A stretch of 34,070 nt of DNA from Prevotellaceae bacterium (GTDB lineage Bacteria; Bacteroidota; Bacteroidia; Bacteroidales; UBA932): assembly GCA_031273485.1 (NCBI GenBank), contig JAISRS010000288.1, positions 1-34,070 of the forward strand, written 5' to 3'. The translations under genes were made by a program, and so were the position numbers. Position 1 is the stretch's first letter; each line of letters begins with the position of its first letter. The notes under the pieces are model-generated. The model saw nothing but the letters and a program-made list of their open reading frames with translations. It did not search any database and had not been told where the DNA came from. Shown one piece after another: positions 4,113 to 34,070 of this stretch.

Positions 4113-5336
4113 ATGAAATGTCGCCATTGTGGACAAGAACTGACTCAAGAATTTGTCAACTTGTATAATGCTCCGCCGTCGAATGCATATTTGACTGAAG
4201 AACAGCTGAATGAACCGGAAATATGCTATCCCCTTAGAATATTTGTATGCGATAAATGTTTTTTGGTTCAGATTGATGAGTACAAAAAATCTGCTGAGAT
4301 TTTTAGCTCTGAATATGCCTATTTCAGCTCTTATTCATCATTGTGGCTGAAACATGCACGTTCGTATGTCGAAAAGATGGTTCAAAAACTTGAACTGAAT
4401 GAACAGTCTTTTATTATCGAAATCGCAAGCAATGATGGATATTTGCTGCAATATGTTAAAGAAAAGAACATACCCTGCCTTGGTATCGAACCTACGGCTT
4501 CAACAGCTAAAGTGGCTAAGGATAAAGGAATTGATGTCTTAGAAGACTTTTTCGATTCCCGTATGGCATTGTCGCTCAAAAAAGCCGATTTGATTCTGGG
4601 AAATAATGTTTTGGCTCATGTTCCGGATATTAATGATTTTGTTAAGGGCATGAAAATCGCGCTAAAGCCCCAGGGCACTATCACGATGGAATTTCCGCAC
4701 CTGCTAAACTTAATCCAATATAATCAGTTTGATACTATTTATCATGAGCATTTTTCGTATCTTTCGTTAATGACGGTTCGAACTATTTTTGCATCGCAGG
4801 GCCTGAAAATATATGATGTGGAGGAACTCCCAACTCACGGCGGCAGTCTGAGGATTTATGCAACTCACGTCGAAAATGACATAAAGGCAGAAAAAACGGT
4901 CAATGATTTGATTGACAGAGAAAAACAGGCTCACTTGGATAGCATGGATGGATACAAAGGATTTGAACAAAAAATCCAAAAAATCAAATGGGATTTCTTG
5001 GATTTTTTGCTGCAGGCTCAACGCGATGGTAAAAAAATCGTTGCCTACGGCGCAGCTGCTAAGGGGAATACCTTTCTAAATTATTGCGGAGTTAAGGCTG
5101 ATGCTATACAGTTCGTGGTCGACGCTTCCCCGCATAAGCAAAATAAATTCCTGCCCCTTAGCCATATCCCCATTGTTTCGAAGGAACGATTGACGACGGA
5201 AAGAATAGATTATATCCTTATTTTGCCGTGGAATATCAAAAATGAAATCATAAATAGCTTAACATTCACTAACAGGAGGGGGGAGGTAAAGTGGGTTACA
5301 GCTATTCCAAAGCTGGAGTTATGGCACGCAGAGTGA
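4113..5336 (+). CDS. NDP-hexose C-methyltransferase family protein (TylC3/NovU-like architecture: N-terminal Zn ribbon, class I SAM domain, C-methyltransferase C-terminal domain)
   Basis: CRHCG...CDKCF four-Cys ribbon, YAYFSSYS motif, IIEIASNDGYLL SAM motif I, and a C-terminal AYGAAAKGNTFLNYCG...DASPHKQNKFLP...IPI Rossmann-like domain; 407 aa. Confidence 0.85.
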   Translation: MKCRHCGQELTQEFVNLYNAPPSNAYLTEEQLNEPEICYPLRIFVCDKCFLVQIDEYKKSAEIFSSEYAYFSSYSSLWLKHARSYVEKMVQKLELNEQSFIIEIASNDGYLLQYVKEKNIPCLGIEPTASTAKVAKDKGIDVLEDFFDSRMALSLKKADLILGNNVLAHVPDINDFVKGMKIALKPQGTITMEFPHLLNLIQYNQFDTIYHEHFSYLSLMTVRTIFASQGLKIYDVEELPTHGGSLRIYATHVENDIKAEKTVNDLIDREKQAHLDSMDGYKGFEQKIQKIKWDFLDFLLQAQRDGKKIVAYGAAAKGNTFLNYCGVKADAIQFVVDASPHKQNKFLPLSHIPIVSKERLTTERIDYILILPWNIKNEIINSLTFTNRRGEVKWVTAIPKLELWHAE

Positions 5337-7581: not shown

Positions 7582-8820
7582 ATGAATACTAAGCCCAAAT
7601 ATACAATTATTATCCCAACAAGAAATTCTCTTGAATATCTGAAAGATGCTATAGAATCCGTATTGTCTCAGCCTTTTTCGGATTACGAGCTTATTGTTAG
7701 TGATAATCATTCGGATGATGACACCCATGAGTATGTTAACTCTATTTCACATCCAAATCTCCGACTGATAAAGCCTGGAAAAGGGCTTTCTATGGTGGAT
7801 CACTGGGAATGGGCACTTACGTATGCAACGGGCGAATGGATTGTTTTTTTAGGTGCTGATGATGGTGTAATGCCCTATTTTTTTGAACTCGCCGAGTTTC
7901 TGACTCGCAAAGCTGAAAATAAAAATATCAAAGTAATAAATTCTGTTAGAGCTTACTTTTTTTGGGATGGATGTCAAAATGTATATGGAGACAAATCTAT
8001 CAGCTATGCAGCACATGCCAAATGCGTGGTAAGACAATCCAAATTAGAGTTGTTGGATGCAACTATCGGGCTAAGCAACTATCTTTATTTGCCTCAAATG
8101 TATACCGCTTCTATCGTACATATATCGCTCGTTCAAACCGCTAAAGCAAAAAATGACGGCGCTTTTTATAGTTCGCTCATTCCGGATGCTAATGGAGCAG
8201 CTATTATCTGCTCGATAGAAGATAAGTATCTTGAATCTCTTATACCATTGGGTTGGATCGGCAGTTCGCCTAAAAGTAATGGATTAATTTTTAGCATTGA
8301 TAAAGATAAGTTTAAAAAAGAAAATTCATTGAACTTCGATTCAACTATTATTCAATGGCATCCTTTAGCTGGAGTTTTTAATAAAGGTGTGGACGCCAGG
8401 AATGTTGATAATTTTAAAATGTATTTGTTTGAAGCATTAATGCAAACACAGCATTTGCAAAAACCTTTCTGGGCAAAAATATACAACTCAAGATGGTTTA
8501 AAACCATGCTTTTTGCAACAGTTTATAATCAAATAAAAAAAAAATCGAATGAAGTGGAGTTTTTGAAGGAAATCACCGCAATAAACAAAATTCCTTTCAG
8601 TTTGGTATTATTTTGTAGTTTCACTCTATCAAGGTTTGTTTGGGCTGTTTTAAAGAGTATGGATGTTATAATGAGAATTAAGAATGAAATATTCCTTAAA
8701 ACGATCCGATTGAAACTGCCTCATCGGCATGATTCCGAAATACGTCTTATGGATGCAAGTAATCGTATCCACAAATTAGAGGTGGAAAGAAACTTCATAC
8801 AAGGATTCATAAATAAATGA
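7582..8820 (+). CDS. Glycosyltransferase family 2 protein
   Basis: YTIIIPTRNSLEYLKDAIESVLSQPFSDYELIVSDNHSDDDT and FLGADD (DxD-type) are classic GT2 N-terminal domain features. The C-terminal half carries hydrophobic segments. Confidence 0.88.
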   Translation: MNTKPKYTIIIPTRNSLEYLKDAIESVLSQPFSDYELIVSDNHSDDDTHEYVNSISHPNLRLIKPGKGLSMVDHWEWALTYATGEWIVFLGADDGVMPYFFELAEFLTRKAENKNIKVINSVRAYFFWDGCQNVYGDKSISYAAHAKCVVRQSKLELLDATIGLSNYLYLPQMYTASIVHISLVQTAKAKNDGAFYSSLIPDANGAAIICSIEDKYLESLIPLGWIGSSPKSNGLIFSIDKDKFKKENSLNFDSTIIQWHPLAGVFNKGVDARNVDNFKMYLFEALMQTQHLQKPFWAKIYNSRWFKTMLFATVYNQIKKKSNEVEFLKEITAINKIPFSLVLFCSFTLSRFVWAVLKSMDVIMRIKNEIFLKTIRLKLPHRHDSEIRLMDASNRIHKLEVERNFIQGFINK

Positions 8821-26515: not shown

Positions 26516-28279
26516 TTGAAAACATTTGAAGAATTAGGCATTGCCGCACCTTTGTTGCAGGCAATCCGCGAAATGGGTTACGAAGTCCCCATGCCGGTAC
26601 AGGAGGAAGTGATTCCGCTGCTGCTCGGAAACGACAACGACGTGATCGCCCTCGCGCAAACAGGAACCGGAAAAACGGCCGCCTACGGTCTGCCGGTTTT
26701 GCAAAACATCAATCAGCAGCAACAACAGCCTCAGGCATTGATACTTTGCCCCACACGCGAACTTTGCCTCCAAATCGCCGGAGACCTGAACGATTACTCC
26801 AAATACATGGACGGGCTGAAAATCCTCCCCGTATATGGCGGGTCGAGCATCGACAGCCAGATCAAGACGCTGAAAAAAGGCGTGCATGTTGTCGTCGCTA
26901 CGCCCGGAAGGCTGATCGACCTGATGGAACGCAAGACCGTGAATTTGAACGACATTAAAAACGTCATTCTCGACGAAGCCGACGAAATGCTCAATATGGG
27001 CTTTACGGACAGCATCAACGCAATCCTGGCTCAGGTGCCGCCTGCGCGAAACATGCTCCTCTTCTCGGCCACCATGCCCCAGGAAATCGCCCGAATTACG
27101 AAAAAATACATGCGCGAACCGCGCGAAATCGTCATTGGACGGAAAAACGAAGGCAACGAAAATATCCGCCACATTTATTATATGGTACACGCCAAGGACA
27201 AGTACCTCGCTCTCAAACGAATCGTGGATTTCTATCCCAACGTATACGGAATCATCTTCTGCCGCACCCGCAAGGAAACGCAGGAAATTGCAGACAAGCT
27301 GATTCAGGACGGATACAATGCCGATTCGCTGCATGGCGAACTCAGTCAGATGCAGCGCGACTACGTGATGCAGAAATTCCGCCTCCGTAACCTCCAGCTC
27401 TTAGTCGCCACCGATGTGGCAGCGCGGGGACTGGATGTGGACGACCTGACTCACGTCATCCACTACGGCTTGCCCGACGAAACCGAGTCGTATACCCACC
27501 GGAGCGGACGTACCGGACGGGCCGGCAAAACAGGCATCTCCATCGCGATCTGCCATATCCGGGAAAAAGGAAAAATCAGGGAAATCGGAAAAATCATCAG
27601 CAAAACTTTTGAAAAGGGTACGCTTCCCACCGGAAAAGCCATCTGCGAAAAACAACTCTTCAATCTGGTCGACCAGATTGAAAAAGTAAAGGTGAACGAA
27701 GCCGAAATCGCATCACTGATGCCCTCCGTCCTCCGCAAGCTGGAATGGCTGGAAAAGGAAGACATCATCAAGCGCCTGATCTCGCTCGAGTTTAACCGGA
27801 TGCTTGATTACTATCGCGATGCGGACGAAATCGCCATCGTCGACGAGTCTTCCCGGCAGGAAGACCGCAAGGAACGCGGCAATCATCGGTCATTTAAAGC
27901 CGAGGACGGCTACAAGCGATTTTTTATTAACTTCGGGAAAAACGACGGCATGTTTCCCAATCAACTGATCGAACTGATTAACCGTTGCGTCCCCGGCAAG
28001 GTGCAAATCGGAAAGATTGACCTGCGGGAAAGCTTCTCTTTCTTCGAGGTGGACAAAAAAGAAGCGCAACGCGTGATGGAGCGGATGAACAGCTACGAAG
28101 TGGACGGACGGGTGATTTCCGTGGAACCGGCGCAGGATAAAAACGGCGAAAAAAGCGGCGAAAAAAACAGATTCAACGGTGGCGGCACCTGGAAAAAACG
28201 CGATTCCGAACGCGGCAGCAACAGACGCAGCGGCGGGAAAAACGACAAGCCCTGGCGGAAACGAATGGAGCGCAGATAA
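26516..28279 (+). CDS. DEAD-box ATP-dependent RNA helicase with DbpA-type C-terminal RNA-binding domain and a basic tail (DeaD/CsdA-like); TTG start
   Basis: KTFEELG...PMPVQ (Q motif), AQTGTGKT, PTRELC, DEAD (LDEADEML), SAT, ARGLDV and HRSGRTGRAG; the C-terminus reads RFFINFGKNDG...GKIDL. A TAA at 26510-26512 closes the frame upstream, so TTG at 26516 is the only start that keeps the Q-motif aromatic residue. Confidence 0.93.
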   Translation: MKTFEELGIAAPLLQAIREMGYEVPMPVQEEVIPLLLGNDNDVIALAQTGTGKTAAYGLPVLQNINQQQQQPQALILCPTRELCLQIAGDLNDYSKYMDGLKILPVYGGSSIDSQIKTLKKGVHVVVATPGRLIDLMERKTVNLNDIKNVILDEADEMLNMGFTDSINAILAQVPPARNMLLFSATMPQEIARITKKYMREPREIVIGRKNEGNENIRHIYYMVHAKDKYLALKRIVDFYPNVYGIIFCRTRKETQEIADKLIQDGYNADSLHGELSQMQRDYVMQKFRLRNLQLLVATDVAARGLDVDDLTHVIHYGLPDETESYTHRSGRTGRAGKTGISIAICHIREKGKIREIGKIISKTFEKGTLPTGKAICEKQLFNLVDQIEKVKVNEAEIASLMPSVLRKLEWLEKEDIIKRLISLEFNRMLDYYRDADEIAIVDESSRQEDRKERGNHRSFKAEDGYKRFFINFGKNDGMFPNQLIELINRCVPGKVQIGKIDLRESFSFFEVDKKEAQRVMERMNSYEVDGRVISVEPAQDKNGEKSGEKNRFNGGGTWKKRDSERGSNRRSGGKNDKPWRKRMERR

Positions 28280-28705: not shown

Positions 28706-31700
28706 ATGAAAAAACATATTACGAACAGATTGCATAGTCTTATTTCGTTACGAAAGAGACTGAAAAGGGTTGCGGGAATGTATATGTTCCTGCTTATGAT
28801 GTCTACGTTTTCACTTGTGGCGTCCGGTTTATCTCCGCAAATGACGGCGAGCGGGCAGGAGAGGGTGGTCACGGGAACGGTGACTGATGTGAACGGCGAA
28901 CCGGTTATCGGGGCGAATGTGATTGTGGTGGGAACGACTGTCGGCAATATTACCGATGTAGACGGGAAGTATACGCTGAATGTGCCGGAGGGCGCTGTGC
29001 TTCAGTTTTCATTTATCGGCTATGTTACACAGGAAATACCGGTGGAAAACCGAACGGTCATCAATGTGCAGTTGCTGGAAGACAGACAGATGCTGGAGGA
29101 AGTGGTAGTTGTCGGGTACGGGATGCAGAAGAAGGCGACCCTGTCCGGTTCCATCAGTACGGTGAAGGGTGACGACATCGTGAAAGTCCCGGCTACAAAT
29201 GCCAGCCAGCTGTTGACGGGGCTTATGCCCGGATTGACGACGATCCAGCGCAGTGGCGAGCCGGGTAATGATGATGCCACGATCCGCATACGCGGTTCCA
29301 ACACGCTGGGAAACAATGATCCGCTGATTGTAGTCGATGGTGTGCCCGGGCGCTCCCTTTCGCGGATTGATCAGCACTCAATCGAGAGTATTACAATCCT
29401 TAAGGACGCTTCGGCGGCCATTTACGGCTCAGAGGCGGCCAATGGTGTGATTCTGATTACCACGAAGCGGGGAAAAGAAGGCAAACCGGTGATTACCGTC
29501 AACCTGAACCAGGGATTCAGCCAGCCTACGCGCATTCCAAGGATGAGTAACGGCTCGGAGTACGCCACATTGCTGAATGAAATCGACCAGTACGAAGGGC
29601 GGACACCTCGTTATACGGACGATGAAATTAAGCGTTTTACGTCGGGAACCGATCCGTGGCGATATCCGAACACCGACTGGTTTGATGCGGTACTGAAGCC
29701 CTGGTCCGGCCAGAACAATCTGAATGCCCAACTCACCGGCGGGCGCGAGGAAATCAAGTATCACTTCTCCGTCGGGTCGAAGTTTCAGGATGCGTTTTAT
29801 CGCAACAGTGTAAGCAATTATCACCAGTACGATATCCGGAGCAATATGGATATTAAACTCTCGGATTACATTAAATTCGGCGTCGATTTATATGGCCGGA
29901 CGGAGAATATCAATTCCCCGACCAGAGGCTACAATGCCATATTCCGGTCTACCACGATGGGCAATCCAAACGTGCATGCCGTATGGCCGGACGGCACGCC
30001 CGGACCCGATATTCTGGAAGGCAACAATCCGGTTACCATTGCCACGAACGCAGCCGGCTATGACCGGAACCGAGTTTACACGGTCAACAGCACGGCGCGG
30101 CTAACCCTCACCGTTCCCTGGATTAAGGGACTGTCTTTCAACGGCAGTGCGAGCTATGACAAGTCACTCCAAAACCGTACTCTCTGGGAAACACCCTGGG
30201 AGGTGAATACCTGGGACGGTAAAACGATCAAGGAGGACGGTTCCGGCACGCCCGTACTTCATTCGGCGATGGTGCCATTCCCGGATCCGCGGCTAACGCG
30301 CTTTATGTACGACAAGCAAACCGTTCTTCTCAACGGCATACTGAGTTACGAGCGGAAATTCGGCCTTCACGCCATGAACGTAATGGCCGGTATGGAGACC
30401 ATCGAAGGACGCGGGAACGATTTCAACGCTTTCCGGCGCCATTACGTTTCAACGGCCATTCCCGAACTCTTTGCCGGAGGCGGGCAGGACAAGGACAACA
30501 CCGGCACATCGTATGAAAACGCCCGGCTAAACTATTTCGGGCGTGTCAATTACAATTACCGGGAGGCGCTACTCTTTGAATTTGTCTGGCGCTACGATGG
30601 TTCGTATATTTTCCCCCGTCGCAGCCGTTTCGGCTTCTTTCCCGGCGCTTCCGTCGGCTGGCGGATTTCACAGGAAGACTTTTGGCGGGAGCATATTCCC
30701 TTTATCGAGGAGCTAAAACTGCGTCTTTCGTATGGCCAAACCGGTAACGACCGGATTGACGAGTGGCAGTACCTCTCTTCATACGGATATAACACGAGCG
30801 GATATGTATATAACTTCGGCGTGTCCGAAGCCAGCAAGCTGCTGTATGAAGCGCGGATTCCGAACCGAAACATTACGTGGGAGAAAGCCGATCAGTTCAA
30901 TGTCGGATTTGAATCTTACATCCTCAACAGCAAGCTGTTCTTTGAAGTAGACTACTTCGACTACCGCCGCTCCAATATCCTGTGGATGCGGAACGCCTCC
31001 GTGCCTTCCTCCACCGGACTTACGCTTCCGCGCGAGAACATCGGGAAGGTTTTAAACCAGGGCGTTGACTTCCTGATTCGTTATCGGGAGAAGATACGCG
31101 ATTTCGAGTTTCAGGTATCGCTTAACGGCGGATATGCACGAAATAAAATCACGTTCTGGGACGAAGCCCCCGGCCGTATGCCCTGGCAGACGTCAACCGG
31201 AAAGCCTATTCCCTCGGATCCGGAGAATCCCGACACCGAAATGTATTATGACGCCATCGGGATATTCAGAGACCAGGCGGCCATAGACGCATATCCGCAC
31301 TGGGAAAACGCACGTCCGGGTGATATTATCTTTCGCGACATAAACGGCGACGGAAAAATCGACGGTTTAGACCGTTTGCGGATTAACAAAAACAATGTTC
31401 CCCGCTTTACAGGCGGTTTAAATATCGGCATGTCCTTTCGCGGGTTCGATTTCACCGCTCTTTTCCAGGGCGCTGCCGGCGCCGTGCGGTATATCTCCAC
31501 GGAAAGCGGATATATCGGGAATTTCACGAAAGATTTCTACGATAACCGCTGGACGATAAATAATCCGGACGCTACCGGCCCGCGAGCTTTCAACCGCGAC
31601 GCCGAATACTGGCGAAATAACCGGAATACGTACTTCCTGAAAAAGTCAGACTACATACGTGTCAAGACTTTGGAGGCGGGATACACCGTGCCGGCCGCTT

Positions 31701-31879
31701 TTGCGCACAAACTTGGCCTGCAAAACCTGCGAATTTACGTCAGCGGGTATAATCTTTTCACGTTTAGCCCCGATATGAAGGACTTCGATCCCGAATCGAA
31801 TCACAGCGACATCGGAGGCGAGACGCAGCCATATCCTGCCCAGCGGGTAATTAACGGAGGAATCAGTCTTACATTATAA
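28706..31879 (+). CDS. SusC/RagA family TonB-linked outer membrane protein
   Basis: N-terminal carboxypeptidase-regulatory-like domain (VTGTVTDVNGEPVIGANVIVVGTTVGNITDVDGKYTL), plug (ITILKDASAAIYGSEAANGVILITTKRG), and a long barrel ending in GGISLTL; 1057 aa. There is no STN domain. The real start may be the internal Met at 28778 (MYMFLLMMS...). Confidence 0.93.
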   Translation: MKKHITNRLHSLISLRKRLKRVAGMYMFLLMMSTFSLVASGLSPQMTASGQERVVTGTVTDVNGEPVIGANVIVVGTTVGNITDVDGKYTLNVPEGAVLQFSFIGYVTQEIPVENRTVINVQLLEDRQMLEEVVVVGYGMQKKATLSGSISTVKGDDIVKVPATNASQLLTGLMPGLTTIQRSGEPGNDDATIRIRGSNTLGNNDPLIVVDGVPGRSLSRIDQHSIESITILKDASAAIYGSEAANGVILITTKRGKEGKPVITVNLNQGFSQPTRIPRMSNGSEYATLLNEIDQYEGRTPRYTDDEIKRFTSGTDPWRYPNTDWFDAVLKPWSGQNNLNAQLTGGREEIKYHFSVGSKFQDAFYRNSVSNYHQYDIRSNMDIKLSDYIKFGVDLYGRTENINSPTRGYNAIFRSTTMGNPNVHAVWPDGTPGPDILEGNNPVTIATNAAGYDRNRVYTVNSTARLTLTVPWIKGLSFNGSASYDKSLQNRTLWETPWEVNTWDGKTIKEDGSGTPVLHSAMVPFPDPRLTRFMYDKQTVLLNGILSYERKFGLHAMNVMAGMETIEGRGNDFNAFRRHYVSTAIPELFAGGGQDKDNTGTSYENARLNYFGRVNYNYREALLFEFVWRYDGSYIFPRRSRFGFFPGASVGWRISQEDFWREHIPFIEELKLRLSYGQTGNDRIDEWQYLSSYGYNTSGYVYNFGVSEASKLLYEARIPNRNITWEKADQFNVGFESYILNSKLFFEVDYFDYRRSNILWMRNASVPSSTGLTLPRENIGKVLNQGVDFLIRYREKIRDFEFQVSLNGGYARNKITFWDEAPGRMPWQTSTGKPIPSDPENPDTEMYYDAIGIFRDQAAIDAYPHWENARPGDIIFRDINGDGKIDGLDRLRINKNNVPRFTGGLNIGMSFRGFDFTALFQGAAGAVRYISTESGYIGNFTKDFYDNRWTINNPDATGPRAFNRDAEYWRNNRNTYFLKKSDYIRVKTLEAGYTVPAAFAHKLGLQNLRIYVSGYNLFTFSPDMKDFDPESNHSDIGGETQPYPAQRVINGGISLTL

Positions 31880-31891
31880 TATAAGTAACTT

Positions 31892-33682
31892 ATGAAAACT
31901 TTTAGCAACAGTATACAGCAATTCAAATATGGCGTGCTCAGTCTGGCACTAACCGTGCAGCTTAGCGCCTGCAGCGGATTCCTCGACAGAGAGCCGCTTG
32001 ATCAGTACGGAGAGGACGCGGTCTGGAGCGACCTGGCCATGATCGAACATTTCGTGAATAACATCTATTGGAACATTGGCCACAGCTTTGACCGGCCGAT
32101 GATCGGCGTGTTTACGGACGAATCCATGTTTGATCCCGGTTCCGACCAGGGACACGGCAATGTGGTGAAGAGTCTGATCACGCCCAGCGACTATGGTCTC
32201 TTTGATACATGGGGACGCGCGCAGAAAATGCGCTGGGAGCACCATTATAAATGTGTACGCGCGTGTAACGTGTTCTTTGAACAGATCGGGAAGCACACCT
32301 ACAAGGATGAGGCGTTTAAACAGCGCCTGATCGGTGAAGTTTATTTCCTGCGCGCATATCACTATCACAACTTGGTGTTCCTGTACGGCGGTATCCCGAT
32401 CATTACAAAGGCCTATACGCTGGACGACGACTTCCAGACAAAGCGCAACAGCTTTGAGGAATGCATTAATTTCCTGGTCGACGACTGCAACCGGGCGGCC
32501 GAAATGCTTCCGCGCGAACAGACAGGCAGCAACTACGGGCGTGCAACCCAGGGCGCGGCACTGGCGCTGAAAGCGCGCATCCTGCTCTATGCCGCCAGCG
32601 AGCTTTACAACTCGAATGCCTCATGGACAAACGGATACGCGCACCCGGAACTTGTCGGCTACGTCGGCGGCGACCGGAACCAGCGCTGGAAAGCCGCAAA
32701 GGATGCGGCCAAAGCCGTTGTGGACATGGGCATCTACCGTCTCCACAGGGAAATCCCCGCACCGGGCGATTCCGTTGCCCGCAACTATGACGAAGTGTTT
32801 ACGCGCAAGCAGACCAGCGAAGGTATTTTTGTCCGCAACTTCACTTCCGCCAATCAAATATGGACAATGCACATTGCCCAGCAGAATCTTCCGGCCGGTT
32901 ACAAAGGATGGGCGAATGTTAGCCCCATCAACGCGATGGTCGACGATTTTGAAATGGCTGACGGAACAAAATTCGACTGGAACAATCCGGAACACCGACT
33001 GCATCCCTACGCCAACCGGGAGCCGCGGTTTTATACGGTCATATTTTTCGACGGAGCCAAGTGGCGCCAGCGCCCGCCCGACGTGATTGCATCCGATCCG
33101 CACGGTATCATACAGACAGGCAACTACGAGCAGCCCAATGGTTCGTGGCTCGGCGGACTGGATGCACTGAACAATCCCGTTACGACGTGGAACGGTACGT
33201 TTACTTCCTACTATCTGCGTAAGTTCCAGGATATTTCAGTCAACAGCCCGCAGGAGCGAACCACGACTCCCTGGCAGTTCATCCGATATGCGGAAGTCCT
33301 GCTCGGCTATGCCGAGGCCTGCATCGAGTTGGGCGAATACGGCGAAGCGCGCCAGTATATTAACATCATTCGCCGGCGTGCCGGTCTTCCGGACGTAACG
33401 GGCAGCGACGCCGAATTGCGAGAAAAACTTCGACACGAACGGAAAATCGAGCTTTGTTTTGAAGATCAGCGCTTTTTCGACATCCGCCGGTGGATGATTG
33501 CGCCGCAAGTGATCGTTAATGCACACGGGCTGGACATTCGCTACTATCACGGACAGGAGAATCCGACATATAAAATCATTCCCGTACAGGAAAGAGACTG
33601 GAAAAATCGCTTTTACTTCTTCCCTATCAAGCTGGACGAGATGAATCGCAATCAGTTGCTGATTCAAAATCCGCTGTACTAA
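31892..33682 (+). CDS. SusD/RagB family nutrient-binding outer membrane lipoprotein
   Basis: Lipoprotein signal with Cys (LTVQLSACSGFLDREP), FLRAYHYHNLVFLYGGIPI, the YAEVLLGYAEACIELG...A..YIN.IR.RAG TPR-like core, and a C-terminal FPIKLDEMNRNQLLIQNPLY; sits 12 nt after susC. Confidence 0.93.
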   Translation: MKTFSNSIQQFKYGVLSLALTVQLSACSGFLDREPLDQYGEDAVWSDLAMIEHFVNNIYWNIGHSFDRPMIGVFTDESMFDPGSDQGHGNVVKSLITPSDYGLFDTWGRAQKMRWEHHYKCVRACNVFFEQIGKHTYKDEAFKQRLIGEVYFLRAYHYHNLVFLYGGIPIITKAYTLDDDFQTKRNSFEECINFLVDDCNRAAEMLPREQTGSNYGRATQGAALALKARILLYAASELYNSNASWTNGYAHPELVGYVGGDRNQRWKAAKDAAKAVVDMGIYRLHREIPAPGDSVARNYDEVFTRKQTSEGIFVRNFTSANQIWTMHIAQQNLPAGYKGWANVSPINAMVDDFEMADGTKFDWNNPEHRLHPYANREPRFYTVIFFDGAKWRQRPPDVIASDPHGIIQTGNYEQPNGSWLGGLDALNNPVTTWNGTFTSYYLRKFQDISVNSPQERTTTPWQFIRYAEVLLGYAEACIELGEYGEARQYINIIRRRAGLPDVTGSDAELREKLRHERKIELCFEDQRFFDIRRWMIAPQVIVNAHGLDIRYYHGQENPTYKIIPVQERDWKNRFYFFPIKLDEMNRNQLLIQNPLY

Positions 33683-33683
33683 A

Positions 33684-33767
33684 GTATGAAGTATGAGGTA
33701 TAAAGTATGAATAATAAACGTTGAACGATGAATTATGAACGATAAACGATGAATGATAAACATTAAA
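33684..33767 (+). repeat. Array of 12 tandem degenerate heptamers NNATRAA starting 2 nt after the SusD stop
   Basis: GTATGAA GTATGAG GTATAAA GTATGAA TAATAAA CGTTGAA CGATGAA TTATGAA CGATAAA CGATGAA TGATAAA CATTAAA, read directly in register. Confidence 0.85.
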
Positions 33768-33801
33768 ATGCGAACTTTGAGAAGTCGTTTATTTTTTCAG
33801 C

Positions 33802-33834
33802 AGCCCCGGCAGGATTTGAACCCCTGCCGGGGCT
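33802..33834. terminator. GC-rich 12-bp hairpin at the centre of the convergent intergenic region (probable bidirectional terminator)
   Basis: AGCCCCGGCAGG-ATTTGAACC-CCTGCCGGGGCT. A T-run (TTTATTTTTT) lies just 5' on the plus strand and AATTATTT lies 3'. The flanks are weaker than a textbook U-tract. Confidence 0.6.
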
Positions 33835-33850
33835 AATTATTTAAACCTCA

Positions 33851-33955
33851 TTTATTGTTCATCGTTCATCCTTCATACCTCATACATCATAATTCATCCA
33901 TCATACCTCATAATTTATCGTTTATTGTTCATCGTTCATCGTTTATAGTTCATCG
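33851..33955 (-). repeat. Array of 15 tandem degenerate heptamers (TTYATNN on plus strand = NNATRAA on minus strand), mirror image of the 33684-33767 array
   Basis: TTTATTG TTCATCG TTCATCC TTCATAC CTCATAC ATCATAA TTCATCC ATCATAC CTCATAA TTTATCG TTTATTG TTCATCG TTCATCG TTTATAG TTCATCG. The array ends 2 nt from the stop codon of the minus-strand ORF. Confidence 0.85.
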
Positions 33956-33957
33956 TT

Positions 33958-34070
33958 CTAACTTTTAAACGGTTGTCTGTCTTTTATTGAACGTCCTAAA
34001 GTAATTTCGTCGGTATATTCTATTTCATCGCCGAAACTTATTCCTCTGGCAATTATTGAAACCATGACAT
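33958..34070 (-). CDS. 3' end of an unidentified minus-strand ORF running off the window (or a 35-aa ORF from the ATG at 34065)
   Basis: Minus-strand frame reads [36 protein letters not shown]-stop (TAG, 33958-33960). No family recognised. It is called only because the frame is open to the window edge and the heptad/hairpin architecture mirrors the SusD side. Confidence 0.35.

What the first reader, a model, noticed from the sequence alone, without database searches (positions are those of the whole stretch)
33684..33962. Mirror-image heptanucleotide arrays bracketing a GC hairpin fill a whole convergent intergenic region
Right after the SusD stop there are 12 consecutive 7-nt units of form NNATRAA (GTATGAA/CGATGAA/CGATAAA types). 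Next come a 34-nt spacer, a 12-bp GC hairpin (33802-33834) and a 16-nt spacer. Then 15 consecutive units read TTYATNN, the same heptad on the other strand, ending at the stop codon of the convergent minus-strand ORF. Each convergent transcript would therefore carry the same-sense (C/G)(G/U)AU(G/A)AA heptads in its 3' UTR before the shared hairpin. The two arrays are also partly complementary (CGATGAA vs TTCATCG), so they could form a very long imperfect stem enclosing the terminator. Because 7 = 1 mod 3 and every unit holds TGA or TAA, the arrays place stops in all three frames. Strict 7-nt phasing over 12-15 units is not what simple AT-rich spacer DNA looks like. Possibilities include a REP/MITE-like genome-wide element, a 3'-UTR binding array for an oligomeric RNA- or DNA-binding protein, or an mRNA-stabilising or insulating structure. 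The tracked ORF 33236-33763 (MFIIHRLSFIIHRSTFIIH...) is an artefact of this repeat.
Basis: seen in the sequence. Interest (0 to 1): 0.65.

Follow-up and report, generated by a model that had tools for sequence, protein, structure and literature searches.

The report
Inverted heptanucleotide repeat arrays around a hairpin
The gap between two converging genes of an uncultured Tannerella-like gut bacterium is filled by two opposed arrays of a 7-base repeat around a strong hairpin; this is a real, non-coding example of a widespread but barely studied kind of bacterial and phage repeat, and its function is still unproven.

Summary
After the native SusD stop come 12 phased heptads (33683-33766), then a perfect 12-bp GC hairpin (33802-33834), then about 16 heptads of the same family on the other strand (33850-33961), ending at the recR stop. 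Period-7 z-scores are 7.8 and 9.6. Nothing similar lies elsewhere in the 34 kb. Units read K-A-T-R-A-a-N, with A2, T3 and A5 invariant.

It is not a known RNA family, tRNA, CRISPR or gene. It belongs to the known but functionally unexplained class of intergenic heptanucleotide repeats. Inverted pairs close behind genes were already described in Xanthomonas.

New here:
- The closest available relative, a Tannerella MAG, has the same GATGAAC-type architecture at a non-orthologous convergent gap.
- That MAG also has short inverted-repeat-bounded palindromic copies that differ by exactly one heptad. One copy is absent from the orthologous site of a sister MAG.
- The same mirrored design occurs in several phyla and in phage genomes, with a polarity bias.

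Best reading: slippage-built foldback repeats that spread within a lineage and are tolerated behind genes. They probably act as a terminator or insulator; that step is inferred. No RNA data, source genome or orthologous site could be obtained.

The parts
31892..33682 (+). SusD-family gene (flank). Its native, conserved C-terminus ...LIQNPLY is followed by TAA at 33680-33682.
   Evidence: Pfam SusD_RagB and SusD-like_3. The C-terminus is identical to 7 homologues (alignment A1).
33683..33766 (+). Left heptad array: 12 phased units, sense on the + strand (TATGAAG, TATGAGG, GATGAAT, GATAAAC ...). It is A-rich (48% A, 6% C), unstructured as RNA, and carries stops in all 3 frames.
33767..33801 (.). 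Left spacer. Two degenerate in-phase units (AATGCGA, ACTTTGA) are followed by a T-rich stretch, GTTTATTTTTTCAG.
33802..33834 (.). Perfect 12-bp GC-rich hairpin with a 9-nt loop (as minus-strand RNA, 14 bp including G-U pairs and a 7-nt loop). It occurs only once in the window.
   Evidence: -27.4 and -29.7 kcal/mol, z about -5.
33835..33849 (.). Right spacer (TAATTATTTAAACCT). It is U-rich on the + strand and grades into degenerate heptads from about 33840.
   Evidence: inverted pair I16.
33850..33961 (-). Right heptad array: about 16 phased units of the same family, sense on the minus strand (GATGAAC x5, TATGAGG, TATGATG, GATAAAT ...). The outermost unit, TTAGAAC, contains the recR stop.
33958..34068 (-). 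3' end of recR (flank). 36 codons are visible; the gene runs off the contig end at 34070.
   Evidence: Pfam RecR_C, E = 6.7e-11.
33236..33763 (-). Spurious ORF. It starts in the stop-free antisense strand of the left array and runs antisense through SusD.

Best explanation
What it is. This is a non-coding, chromosomal example of the intergenic heptanucleotide repeat class, in its inverted-pair (foldback) form. Two independent arrays of the degenerate unit K-A-T-R-A-A-N (modal GATGAAC) each start at the stop codon of one of two converging genes. Each points inward toward a stable GC hairpin.

How it arose (partly shown).
- The arrays grow and shrink by 7-nt replication slippage.
- The heptad family is propagated within this Tannerellaceae lineage as short foldback elements, some bounded by terminal inverted repeats. 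It is not re-invented at each site.

Why it sits where it does (inferred).
- Gene-distal 3' gaps tolerate such insertions.
- The orientation seen places TGA or TAA in all three frames directly behind each gene, so expansion cannot extend the proteins.

What it does (inferred, not shown).
- Each mRNA would end with 80-110 nt of unstructured, A-rich, C-poor heptads followed by the GC hairpin.
- Beyond the hairpin the RNA turns U/C-rich and G-poor.
- Any read-through transcript would fold the two arms into a long imperfect duplex.
- Together this should act as a reinforced, two-way transcription stop or insulator between SusD and recR.
- It is unlikely to be a specific structured RNA.
For: Real periodic arrays.

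Conserved core and variable edges: departures from the majority base per position are 14, 1, 0, 8, 0, 5, 14 (chi-square p about 1e-6).

The arrays start at native stops: the SusD C-terminus is conserved, and recR ends inside the outermost unit.

Same family in the nearest relative. The DeaD helicase is 83% identical to that of Tannerella sp. MAG Gsp477_bin28.
- On its contig L148, a gene stop is followed 1 nt later by (GATGAAC)n, a 78-nt centre, then (GTTCATC)n facing the convergent GAPDH gene. This region folds with z = -9.1.
- L148:10376-10465 and L051:1690-1810 are homologous palindromic GATGAAC elements. They share the terminus TATACTTCACGCGGTCTAAA and differ by exactly one heptad.
- The orthologous helicase-to-U32 gap of a sister MAG (L157) lacks the element.

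Recurrence elsewhere.
Mirrored pairs occur in L008, L027 (two), L040, L049, L096, L108 and L109.
- Phage contigs hold 24 mirrored sites. These often fill whole gaps between structural genes, and some are followed by T-runs.

Polarity: the sense-then-antisense order outnumbers the reverse by 24 to 4 sites in viral contigs and by about 9 to 1 in genomes.

In Bacteroidota loci, arrays tend to start right at a stop codon in the sense orientation: about 15 against 3, from crude ORF calls.

RNA properties.

Literature.
- Xanthomonas has heterogeneous heptamers with a conserved core. 70-75 of them are convergent inverted pairs, they lie on average 28 nt behind the upstream ORF, and they are under-represented between divergent genes (PMC4692102).
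- Heptamers are the most over-represented long simple repeats, and slippage is the proposed cause (Mrazek 2007, as cited in PMC4679880).
Against: - No transcript 3'-end data exist for this organism or its relatives, so the terminator or insulator role is inference only.
- The hairpin has a reasonable U-rich tail only on the + strand (TAATTATTT). On the minus strand it is followed by GCTGAAAAAAT, and the simple terminator scan did not call it.
- In L148 the GAPDH gene has its own canonical hairpin-plus-U terminator outside the element. One arm there is probably seldom transcribed.
- Unit order in the window is not adapted for arm-arm pairing.
- Many heptad arrays elsewhere are single and cannot form hairpins.
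- Reverse-polarity elements exist (L123, L144-L147). The outer arms of the L027 element are T-rich first.
- A broad viral scan shows no sense bias: 27 against 39.
- Only one copy is visible in 34 kb. No terminal inverted repeat or target duplication is visible in the window. Its centre shares no similarity with the relative's elements.
- Distribution is patchy: six other Tannerella-like contigs have none.
Confidence: 0.5

Rival explanations
1. Selfish or neutral DNA only. The arrays are slippage-prone simple repeats, seeded near stop codons and occasionally copied as foldback elements. They persist because 3' intergenic DNA is permissive, and they have no effect on expression.
For: - Distribution among close relatives is patchy.
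- Copies differ by exactly one heptad.
- Unit order is not adapted for pairing.
- Several different heptads can fill the same gap in other Bacteroidota.
- No function was found for the Xanthomonas repeats despite tests (PMC4692102).
- The broad viral scan shows no strand bias.
Against: - Positions 2, 3 and 5 are invariant across 26 units while positions 1 and 7 vary freely.
- The same modal unit occurs at non-orthologous sites in two genomes.
- Polarity is biased: 24 against 4, and about 9 against 1.
- AT-rich ATGAA-type palindromes are kept in phage contigs of 60-70% GC and recur several times per phage genome.
Confidence: 0.25
2. Binding platform for an oligomeric nucleic-acid-binding protein. 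One protein unit would bind per heptad, on double-stranded DNA (as the ribbon-helix-helix protein omega/ParB binds the contiguous heptads of the pSM19035 parS) or on single-stranded RNA (as CspB-type or other single-strand binders do). The inverted arrays would give a symmetric assembly.
For: - A conserved 4-5 nt core is spaced by 2-3 free positions at strict 7-nt phase.
- In phage elements the variable dinucleotides differ between the two arms while the ATGAA phase is kept.
- Polarity is biased.
- The sense arms are unstructured single strands.
- There is precedent for functional 7-bp contiguous repeats in mixed orientation (PMC9499535). CspB binds heptamers (discussed in PMC4679880).
Against: - No candidate protein is known. 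The window has no ParA or ribbon-helix-helix gene and is plainly chromosomal.
- The unit differs from WATCACW.
- The site lies between convergent genes, where there is no promoter to regulate.
- Many different heptads show the same architecture, even within one phage. That would need many different binding specificities.
Confidence: 0.12
3. A translated or ribosome-engaging 3' region. The sense arrays carry an AUG in most units, each followed 5 codons later by an in-frame stop (for example MNDER*, MKYEV*). After terminating, ribosomes might re-initiate and cover the 3' UTR as far as the hairpin, which would change mRNA decay or Rho access.
For: - The left sense arm has 7 ATGs and the right has 13, with stops in every frame.
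- The sequence is A-rich and unstructured, which favours Shine-Dalgarno-independent initiation in Bacteroidota (general knowledge).
Against: - Many related arrays lack ATG, for example GATAAAC units, TAACTGA, GGGAATC and GGGTRCA (PMC4679880; PMC4692102).
- No ribosome profiling or peptide evidence exists.
- This is speculation from the sequence alone.
Confidence: 0.05
4. Assembly artefact: a foldback chimera or a repeat-induced mis-join at the end of a metagenomic contig.
For: - The contig ends only 110 nt beyond the right array.
- In lake metagenomes, contigs break at heptad arrays.
Against: - The right flank is a bona fide recR 3' end, not the reverse complement of SusD.
- The same architecture lies inside other contigs with genes on both sides (L148, L096).
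Confidence: 0.02

Closest known systems
Xanthomonas/Nostoc G-rich heptameric repeats, GGGAATC / GGGGAYT (Rehm et al. 2015, PMC4692102)
   Same: - Intergenic, strictly 7-nt phased, heterogeneous units with a conserved core and free positions.
- Often two arrays on opposite strands in convergent orientation.
- Close to the end of the upstream ORF and rare between divergent genes.
- Function unknown.
   Different: - The unit here is AT-rich (KATRAAN), has no G-tracts and cannot form a G-quadruplex.
- The arrays are longer (12-16 units, against mostly 4).
- They bracket a separate GC hairpin and fill the whole gap.
- The host is a Bacteroidales bacterium.
Long simple sequence repeats of prokaryotes (Mrazek et al. 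2007) and TAACTGA repeats of Beggiatoaceae, Cyanobacteria and some Bacteroidetes (MacGregor 2015, PMC4679880); cyanobacterial STRR heptamers
   Same: - Tandem heptanucleotides in intergenic DNA.
- Sporadic phylogenetic distribution that includes Bacteroidetes.
- The units carry stop codons.
- Slippage is the presumed origin.
   Different: - TAACTGA arrays are mostly short, single, near-perfect and lie just upstream of start codons.
- Here the arrays are degenerate, inverted and lie directly downstream of stop codons.
- GATAACT (which is TAACTGA rotated) was recovered only in cyanobacterial hits.
MITEs with internal tandem repeats, such as BrickBuilt of Porphyromonas gingivalis (Klein et al. 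2015, PMC4596501); eukaryotic foldback elements
   Same: - Non-coding, intergenic, with terminal inverted symmetry and an interior made of tandem repeats with variable copy number.
- Present in a related Bacteroidales family.
- The short Tannerella elements (L051, L148) have terminal inverted repeats, dispersed copies and an empty orthologous site.
   Different: - BrickBuilt has 23-nt direct 'bricks' with leader and tail subunits and carries promoters.
- The window element shows no distinct terminal inverted repeat or target duplication.
- Mobility of the window copy itself is unproven.
Intrinsic (bidirectional) terminators and REP/BIME elements
   Same: - A GC-rich hairpin between convergent genes, with an A-rich upstream flank and a U-rich downstream flank.
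- A palindromic, extragenic location.
   Different: - The flanks here are 80-110 nt phased heptad arrays, not short A- and U-tracts.
- The U-tail is weak and present on one strand only.
- There is no REP consensus, and no RAYT gene is seen.
parS / operator heptads of plasmid pSM19035 bound by omega (ribbon-helix-helix ParB) (PMC9499535)
   Same: Contiguous 7-bp units without spacers, in direct and inverted orientations. At least 4 units are needed for function.
   Different: - The pSM19035 unit is WATCACW, with 7-10 units next to promoters on a Firmicute plasmid, alongside delta/omega genes.
- The window element is chromosomal, has another unit, has no partner genes and has no promoter context.

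Membership tests
Intergenic heptanucleotide simple-sequence repeats (LSSR class) | Head-to-tail units of 7 nt, in arrays longer than chance allows | tested here: met
   12 and about 16 units. Period-7 z = 7.8 and 9.6. TRF reports both. 18 pattern hits against 0.2 expected.
Intergenic heptanucleotide simple-sequence repeats (LSSR class) | Non-coding, intergenic location | tested here: met
   The arrays lie between the native SusD stop and the recR stop. The only overlapping ORF is spurious.
Intergenic heptanucleotide simple-sequence repeats (LSSR class) | Unit-number variation between copies or strains (slippage) | tested here: inconclusive
   No second strain of the window locus exists in the collections. 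In the relative MAG, two homologous elements differ by exactly one heptad.
Xanthomonas-type inverted heptamer pairs (PMC4692102) | Two arrays of one heptad family on opposite strands, in convergent orientation, close behind an ORF | tested here: met
   Both arrays abut stop codons.
Xanthomonas-type inverted heptamer pairs (PMC4692102) | G-tract unit (GGGAATC) able to form a G-quadruplex | tested here: not met
   The units are KATRAAN, with 20-23% G and no G-runs.
TAACTGA repeats (PMC4679880) | Unit TAACTGA, mostly a few nucleotides upstream of start codons | tested here: not met
   The units differ, and the arrays follow stop codons.
MITE / foldback transposable element | Terminal inverted repeats | tested here: inconclusive
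   The arms themselves are inverted repeats (70-84% complementary), but no distinct terminal sequence is present. The relative's short elements have the terminal repeat TATACTTCACGCGGTCTAAA, which is absent from the window.
MITE / foldback transposable element | Target-site duplication | tested here: not met
   No direct repeat flanks 33683-33961. The arrays run straight into the stop codons.
MITE / foldback transposable element | Multiple dispersed copies in one genome, and empty sites in relatives | not testable with these tools
   The source genome is not available. In the relative MAG there are at least 3 loci, and one orthologous site is empty in L157.
Intrinsic terminator | GC-rich stem-loop directly followed by a U-tract | tested here: inconclusive
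   The stem is strong. The + strand tail is UAAUUAUUU. The minus-strand tail, GCUGAAAAAAU, is not U-rich. The consensus scan did not call it, because the loop exceeds 8 nt.
Intrinsic terminator | Transcript 3' ends map at the U-tract | not testable with these tools
   No sequencing runs hold this DNA.
REP/BIME | A 20-40 nt imperfect palindrome with a family consensus, many copies, and an associated RAYT gene | tested here: not met
   The hairpin stem occurs once in the window. No RAYT-like gene is present in the window. Genome-wide copy number cannot be tested.
pSM19035-type heptad parS / omega operator | Heptad WATCACW, with ribbon-helix-helix ParB and ParA genes and an adjacent promoter | tested here: not met
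   The unit differs. The window has no ParA or ribbon-helix-helix gene. The context is a convergent gap with no promoter.
Rfam RNA families / tRNA / CRISPR | A match to a curated model, or repeat-spacer structure | tested here: not met
   No Rfam hit reaches gathering score. The only weak hit is a chance one (E = 0.077). There is no tRNA. The units are contiguous, without spacers.

The most novel reading that the evidence does not exclude
Mirrored heptad arrays may form one unrecognised class of 'heptad foldback' elements. These would be shared by several bacterial phyla and their phages, spread as small mobile units, be resized by slippage, and have a preferred polarity (purine-rich sense arm first). 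On this reading they would work either as tunable two-way transcription stops or insulators, or as the assembly site of an unknown protein that binds one unit per heptad. The SusD-recR element would be a large chromosomal example.
Probability: 0.2. Interest if true: 0.75.

Novelty: new member of a known kind. Interest (0 to 1): 0.5.

Why it matters
Heptanucleotide arrays are the most over-represented long simple repeats in prokaryotes, yet no function has been shown for any of them.

What this case adds:
- It extends the inverted-pair form to Bacteroidales.
- The same unit family recurs at unrelated gene ends within a lineage, in part as small elements bounded by terminal inverted repeats.
- The same design is common in phage genomes.
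- It raises testable regularities: polarity, and starting exactly at stop codons.

If the elements prove to be slippage-tunable terminators or insulators, or protein-binding platforms, that would explain a widespread genomic feature. It could also give a compact tool for insulating genes in Bacteroidota.

Practical consequences:
- These arrays create spurious ORFs (FIIHR... repeats).
- They break metagenomic assemblies.

Tried and rejected
1. Orthologous-site comparison. No sequence closer than 79% (SusD) or 87% (DeaD) protein identity exists in the collections. The SusD and DeaD neighbourhoods of relatives are not syntenic with SusD-recR.
2. Sequencing runs. None is listed for the window or for L051. 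L148 could not be submitted.
3. RNA 3' ends from lake metatranscriptomes laid on phage locus L141. Only assembled contigs are kept, and these break at the arrays in DNA and RNA alike, so they say nothing about 3' ends.
4. Known RNA, tRNA or tRNA-fragment. The minus-strand loop GGTTCAAAT looks like a T-loop, but ARAGORN and Rfam find nothing.
5. Similarity between the window's centre or flanks and the Tannerella elements. None was found.
6. The terminal repeat of the Tannerella short element was used for the single metagenome scan. It gave 3 homologous hits with unrelated interiors and 1 chance hit. That terminus therefore belongs to a broader MITE-like family and is absent from the window.
7. 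Selection for arm-arm pairing. Rejected for the window by the unit-order permutation test.
8. A general sense-strand bias, tested in a broad viral scan. The scan was swamped by AT-rich giant-virus TATAAAA arrays and showed no bias.
9. A cultured relative of the heptad-rich phage L139, Winogradskyella phage Peternella_1. It has no heptad arrays.
10. Plasmid partition site. No par genes are present and the context is chromosomal.
Full report
1. OBSERVATION

- SusD is identified by Pfam SusD_RagB. It ends with its native, conserved C-terminus LIQNPLY (alignment with 7 homologues) and TAA at 33680-33682.
- From 33683 to 33766 there are 12 phased 7-nt units.
- A 35-nt spacer follows, then a perfect 12-bp GC hairpin at 33802-33834, then a 15-nt spacer.
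- From 33850 to 33961 there are about 16 units of the same family on the other strand. The outermost unit holds the stop of a minus-strand gene whose visible 36 residues match RecR_C.
- Period-7 autocorrelation is 0.70 and 0.72, against 0.31-0.33 in shuffles (z = 7.8 and 9.6), with harmonics at 14 and 21.
- A three-unit pattern hits 18 times, all inside the region, against 0.2 expected. No other part of the 34-kb window has such arrays.
- ORF 33236-33763(-) is an artefact of the stop-free antisense strand.

2. ANATOMY

- In the register K-A-T-R-A-A-N, the 26 good units have A2, T3 and A5 invariant in 25-26 of 26. R4 is G in 18 units and A in 8. Positions 1 and 7 are nearly free. Departures from the majority base per position are 14, 1, 0, 8, 0, 5, 14 (p about 1e-6).
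- There are 14 unit types. GATGAAC is the commonest.
- The sense strands are 45-48% A and 6-7% C. They carry 4-6 stops in each frame and 7 (left) and 13 (right) ATGs. The antisense strands are almost stop-free.
- Each sense arm alone is unstructured as RNA. The left arm has -2.2 kcal/mol, and 196 of 200 shuffles fold at least as well.
- The hairpin has -27.4 kcal/mol on the + strand and -29.7 on the minus strand.
- The full region can fold into a long imperfect stem around the hairpin (z = -8.9 and -6.4).
- Permuting unit order within each arm gives equal or better folds (z = +1.05). The pairing therefore follows from having the same heptad family on both strands; unit order is not adapted to it.
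- The hairpin has a U-rich tail only on the + strand, and the consensus scan does not call it.
- No Rfam family, tRNA or CRISPR-like structure is present.

3. ORGANISM AND CONTEXT

- The window is chromosomal. It holds a polysaccharide-synthesis cluster, rubrerythrin, Fur, thioredoxin, DnaE, TsaC, DeaD, SusC/SusD and RecR.
- The best protein matches are to 'Tannerella sp.' and Tannerellaceae MAGs: SusD 77-79% and DeaD 83-87%.
- No near-identical sequence and no sequencing run could be found.
- The neighbourhoods of relatives are not syntenic.

4. RELATED SEQUENCES

(a) Closest relative. Contig L148 comes from the same MAG as L051 (Tannerella sp. Gsp477_bin28, GCA_031267935.1; DeaD 83% identical).
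- It carries the same architecture with the same modal unit at a non-orthologous convergent gap. The stop of a hexapeptide-transferase gene is followed 1 nt later by (GATGAAC)n with TGTGAAC variants, a 78-nt non-repeat centre, and (GTTCATC)n facing GAPDH. It folds with z = -9.1.
- There, GAPDH's own canonical hairpin-plus-U terminator lies outside the element.
- The same MAG has two homologous short palindromic GATGAAC elements with a CCGG loop. They share the terminus TATACTTCACGCGGTCTAAA, which forms terminal inverted repeats in L051. The two copies differ by exactly one heptad.
- The orthologous helicase-to-U32 gap of a sister MAG (L157) has no element.
- Six other Tannerella-like contigs have none.
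- L148 was chosen by protein homology and scanned with a motif-free period-7 detector. The shared unit is therefore not a search artefact.

(b) Genomes in general.
The hits lie mostly in Bacteroidota, Cyanobacteria, Planctomycetota and Chloroflexota.
- Many hits are pure arrays. They include GATAACT, which is the published TAACTGA repeat rotated.
- Mirrored pairs in the sense-then-antisense order occur in L008, L027 (two copies with the same loop), L108 (same MAG as L027), L040, L049, L096 and L109. The reverse order occurs only in L123.
- In L096 the pair again fills a convergent gap, from 1 nt after one stop to 8 nt before the other gene.
- In Bacteroidota loci, arrays often begin right at a stop codon in the sense orientation: about 15 against 3, from crude ORF calls.

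(c) Phages.
- The mirrored ATGAA-type pattern gives 24 sites in viral contigs of 25-70% GC. The reverse polarity gives 4.
- Some phage genomes have 3-4 such elements plus mirrored arrays of a different heptad (GGGTRCA) and many single arrays.
- The elements fill whole gaps, with 5-18 nt margins, between terminase, portal, capsid and tape-measure genes. Several are followed by T-runs.
- The variable dinucleotide is not kept complementary between arms, for example GGATGAA opposite TTCATAA.
- In lake metagenomes the 31-mers of (GGATGAA)n are 15-400 times more abundant than the flanking phage sequence, and they join more than 10 different flanks. They also occur in metatranscriptome assemblies.
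- A broader viral scan was dominated by AT-rich giant-virus arrays and showed no strand bias.

5. LITERATURE

- Heptamers are the most abundant class of long simple repeats in prokaryotes, and polymerase slippage is the proposed cause (Mrazek 2007, as cited in PMC4679880 and PMC4692102).
- Xanthomonas carries about 185 heterogeneous GGGANTN arrays. 70-75 of them form convergent inverted pairs. They lie on average 28 nt behind the upstream ORF, are twice as frequent between convergent as between divergent genes, are mostly transcribed, and have no function found.
- TAACTGA arrays occur in Beggiatoaceae, Cyanobacteria and five Bacteroidetes, mostly upstream of start codons.
- BrickBuilt is a MITE with an internal tandem array in Porphyromonas.
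- The parS of pSM19035 is made of contiguous 7-bp units in mixed orientation, bound by a ribbon-helix-helix ParB.

6. INTERPRETATION

Shown:
- The arrays are real, non-coding, phased and inverted.
- They start at native stops.
- The same unit family and architecture recur at a non-orthologous site in the nearest relative.
- Short homologous copies there differ by one heptad, and one site is empty in a sister genome.
- The design recurs across phyla and phages, with a polarity bias.

Inferred:
- Growth by slippage.
- Spread as small foldback elements.
- Tolerance behind genes, because the sense orientation supplies stops in all frames.
- A terminator or insulator effect. Each transcript would run through an A-rich unstructured arm, the GC hairpin, and then a U/C-rich, G-poor arm. 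Read-through RNA would fold into a long duplex.

Against the functional step:
- The U-tail is weak and present on one strand only.
- GAPDH has an independent terminator in L148.
- Single arrays exist that cannot form hairpins.
- Reverse-polarity elements exist.
- There are no RNA data.

I give the combined explanation a confidence of 0.5. Rivals: purely neutral or selfish DNA 0.25; a protein-binding platform 0.12; a ribosome-engaging 3' region 0.05; an assembly artefact 0.02.

7. NOVELTY AND VERDICT

This is a new member, in a new taxon and with a new AT-rich unit, of a kind already described. The kind itself is poorly understood. The case is interesting mainly because it shows lineage-wide recurrence, inverted-repeat-bounded mobile-looking relatives and a phage connection. 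Interest: 0.5.

Noticed in passing
window 28706-33682, compared with L001-L004: This SusC/SusD pair lacks three things that all close homologues have: the upstream ECF sigma and anti-sigma genes, the STN domain of SusC, and the downstream GHL6-family glycoside hydrolase. The heptad element sits exactly where the locus is cut short, so it may mark a rearrangement breakpoint.
   Followed up: partly
L051:1690-1810, L148:10376-10465, L152, L153, L154: The terminus CA(A)TTTTAGACCGCGTGAAGTATA also occurs in unrelated metagenome contigs of 34-56% GC. L153 has an inverted partner (TTATACTTCACGAGGTC) and a GC-hairpin interior instead of heptads. This looks like a broad MITE-like family with exchangeable interiors. 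It has no Rfam match.
   Followed up: partly
L139, L140, L141, L133, L137 (IMG/VR contigs): These are genuine tailed-phage contigs (terminase, portal, capsid, tape measure). Heptad arrays, single and mirrored and of two or three different units, lie in several of the gaps between their structural genes. The L139 terminase is 49% identical to that of Winogradskyella phage Peternella_1 (Flavobacteriaceae host), which itself has no arrays.
   Followed up: partly
L141:4302-4518 and 8425-8641 in runs X1, X12, X15, X17, X21-X24: The words of (GGATGAA)n are 15-400 times deeper than the flanking phage sequence in lake metagenomes, and they connect to many different flanks. They are also present in metatranscriptome assemblies. 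Contigs break at the arrays.
   Followed up: no
L027:2805-2975 and 5159-5227; L108:6133-6262: One Thermoanaerobaculia MAG has at least three GATGAAC palindromes. Two share the loop TGCTTTG. One is nested inside a second palindrome made of GATTTTA/GATTTTG heptads.
   Followed up: no
L013, L064, L089 (Bacteroidota genome loci): Single intergenic regions hold two or more adjacent arrays of different heptads, for example TATGAGT next to CCGTGAA, or CTTATGC, or CAATAAC.
   Followed up: no
window 34070 (contig end): The contig stops 110 nt beyond the right array, inside recR. This fits with repeats breaking the assembly and hints at further copies in the sample, but it proves nothing.
   Followed up: no
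window 27557-27596: An 18-nt tandem repeat (ATCAGGGAAAAAGGAAAA, 2.2 copies) lies inside the C-terminal region of the DeaD helicase gene.
   Followed up: no
window 33778-33853 (-): There is a weak Rfam match to the mycoplasma frameshift element (31 bits against a gathering score of 88, E = 0.077). It is driven by the GC hairpin and is regarded as chance.
   Followed up: yes
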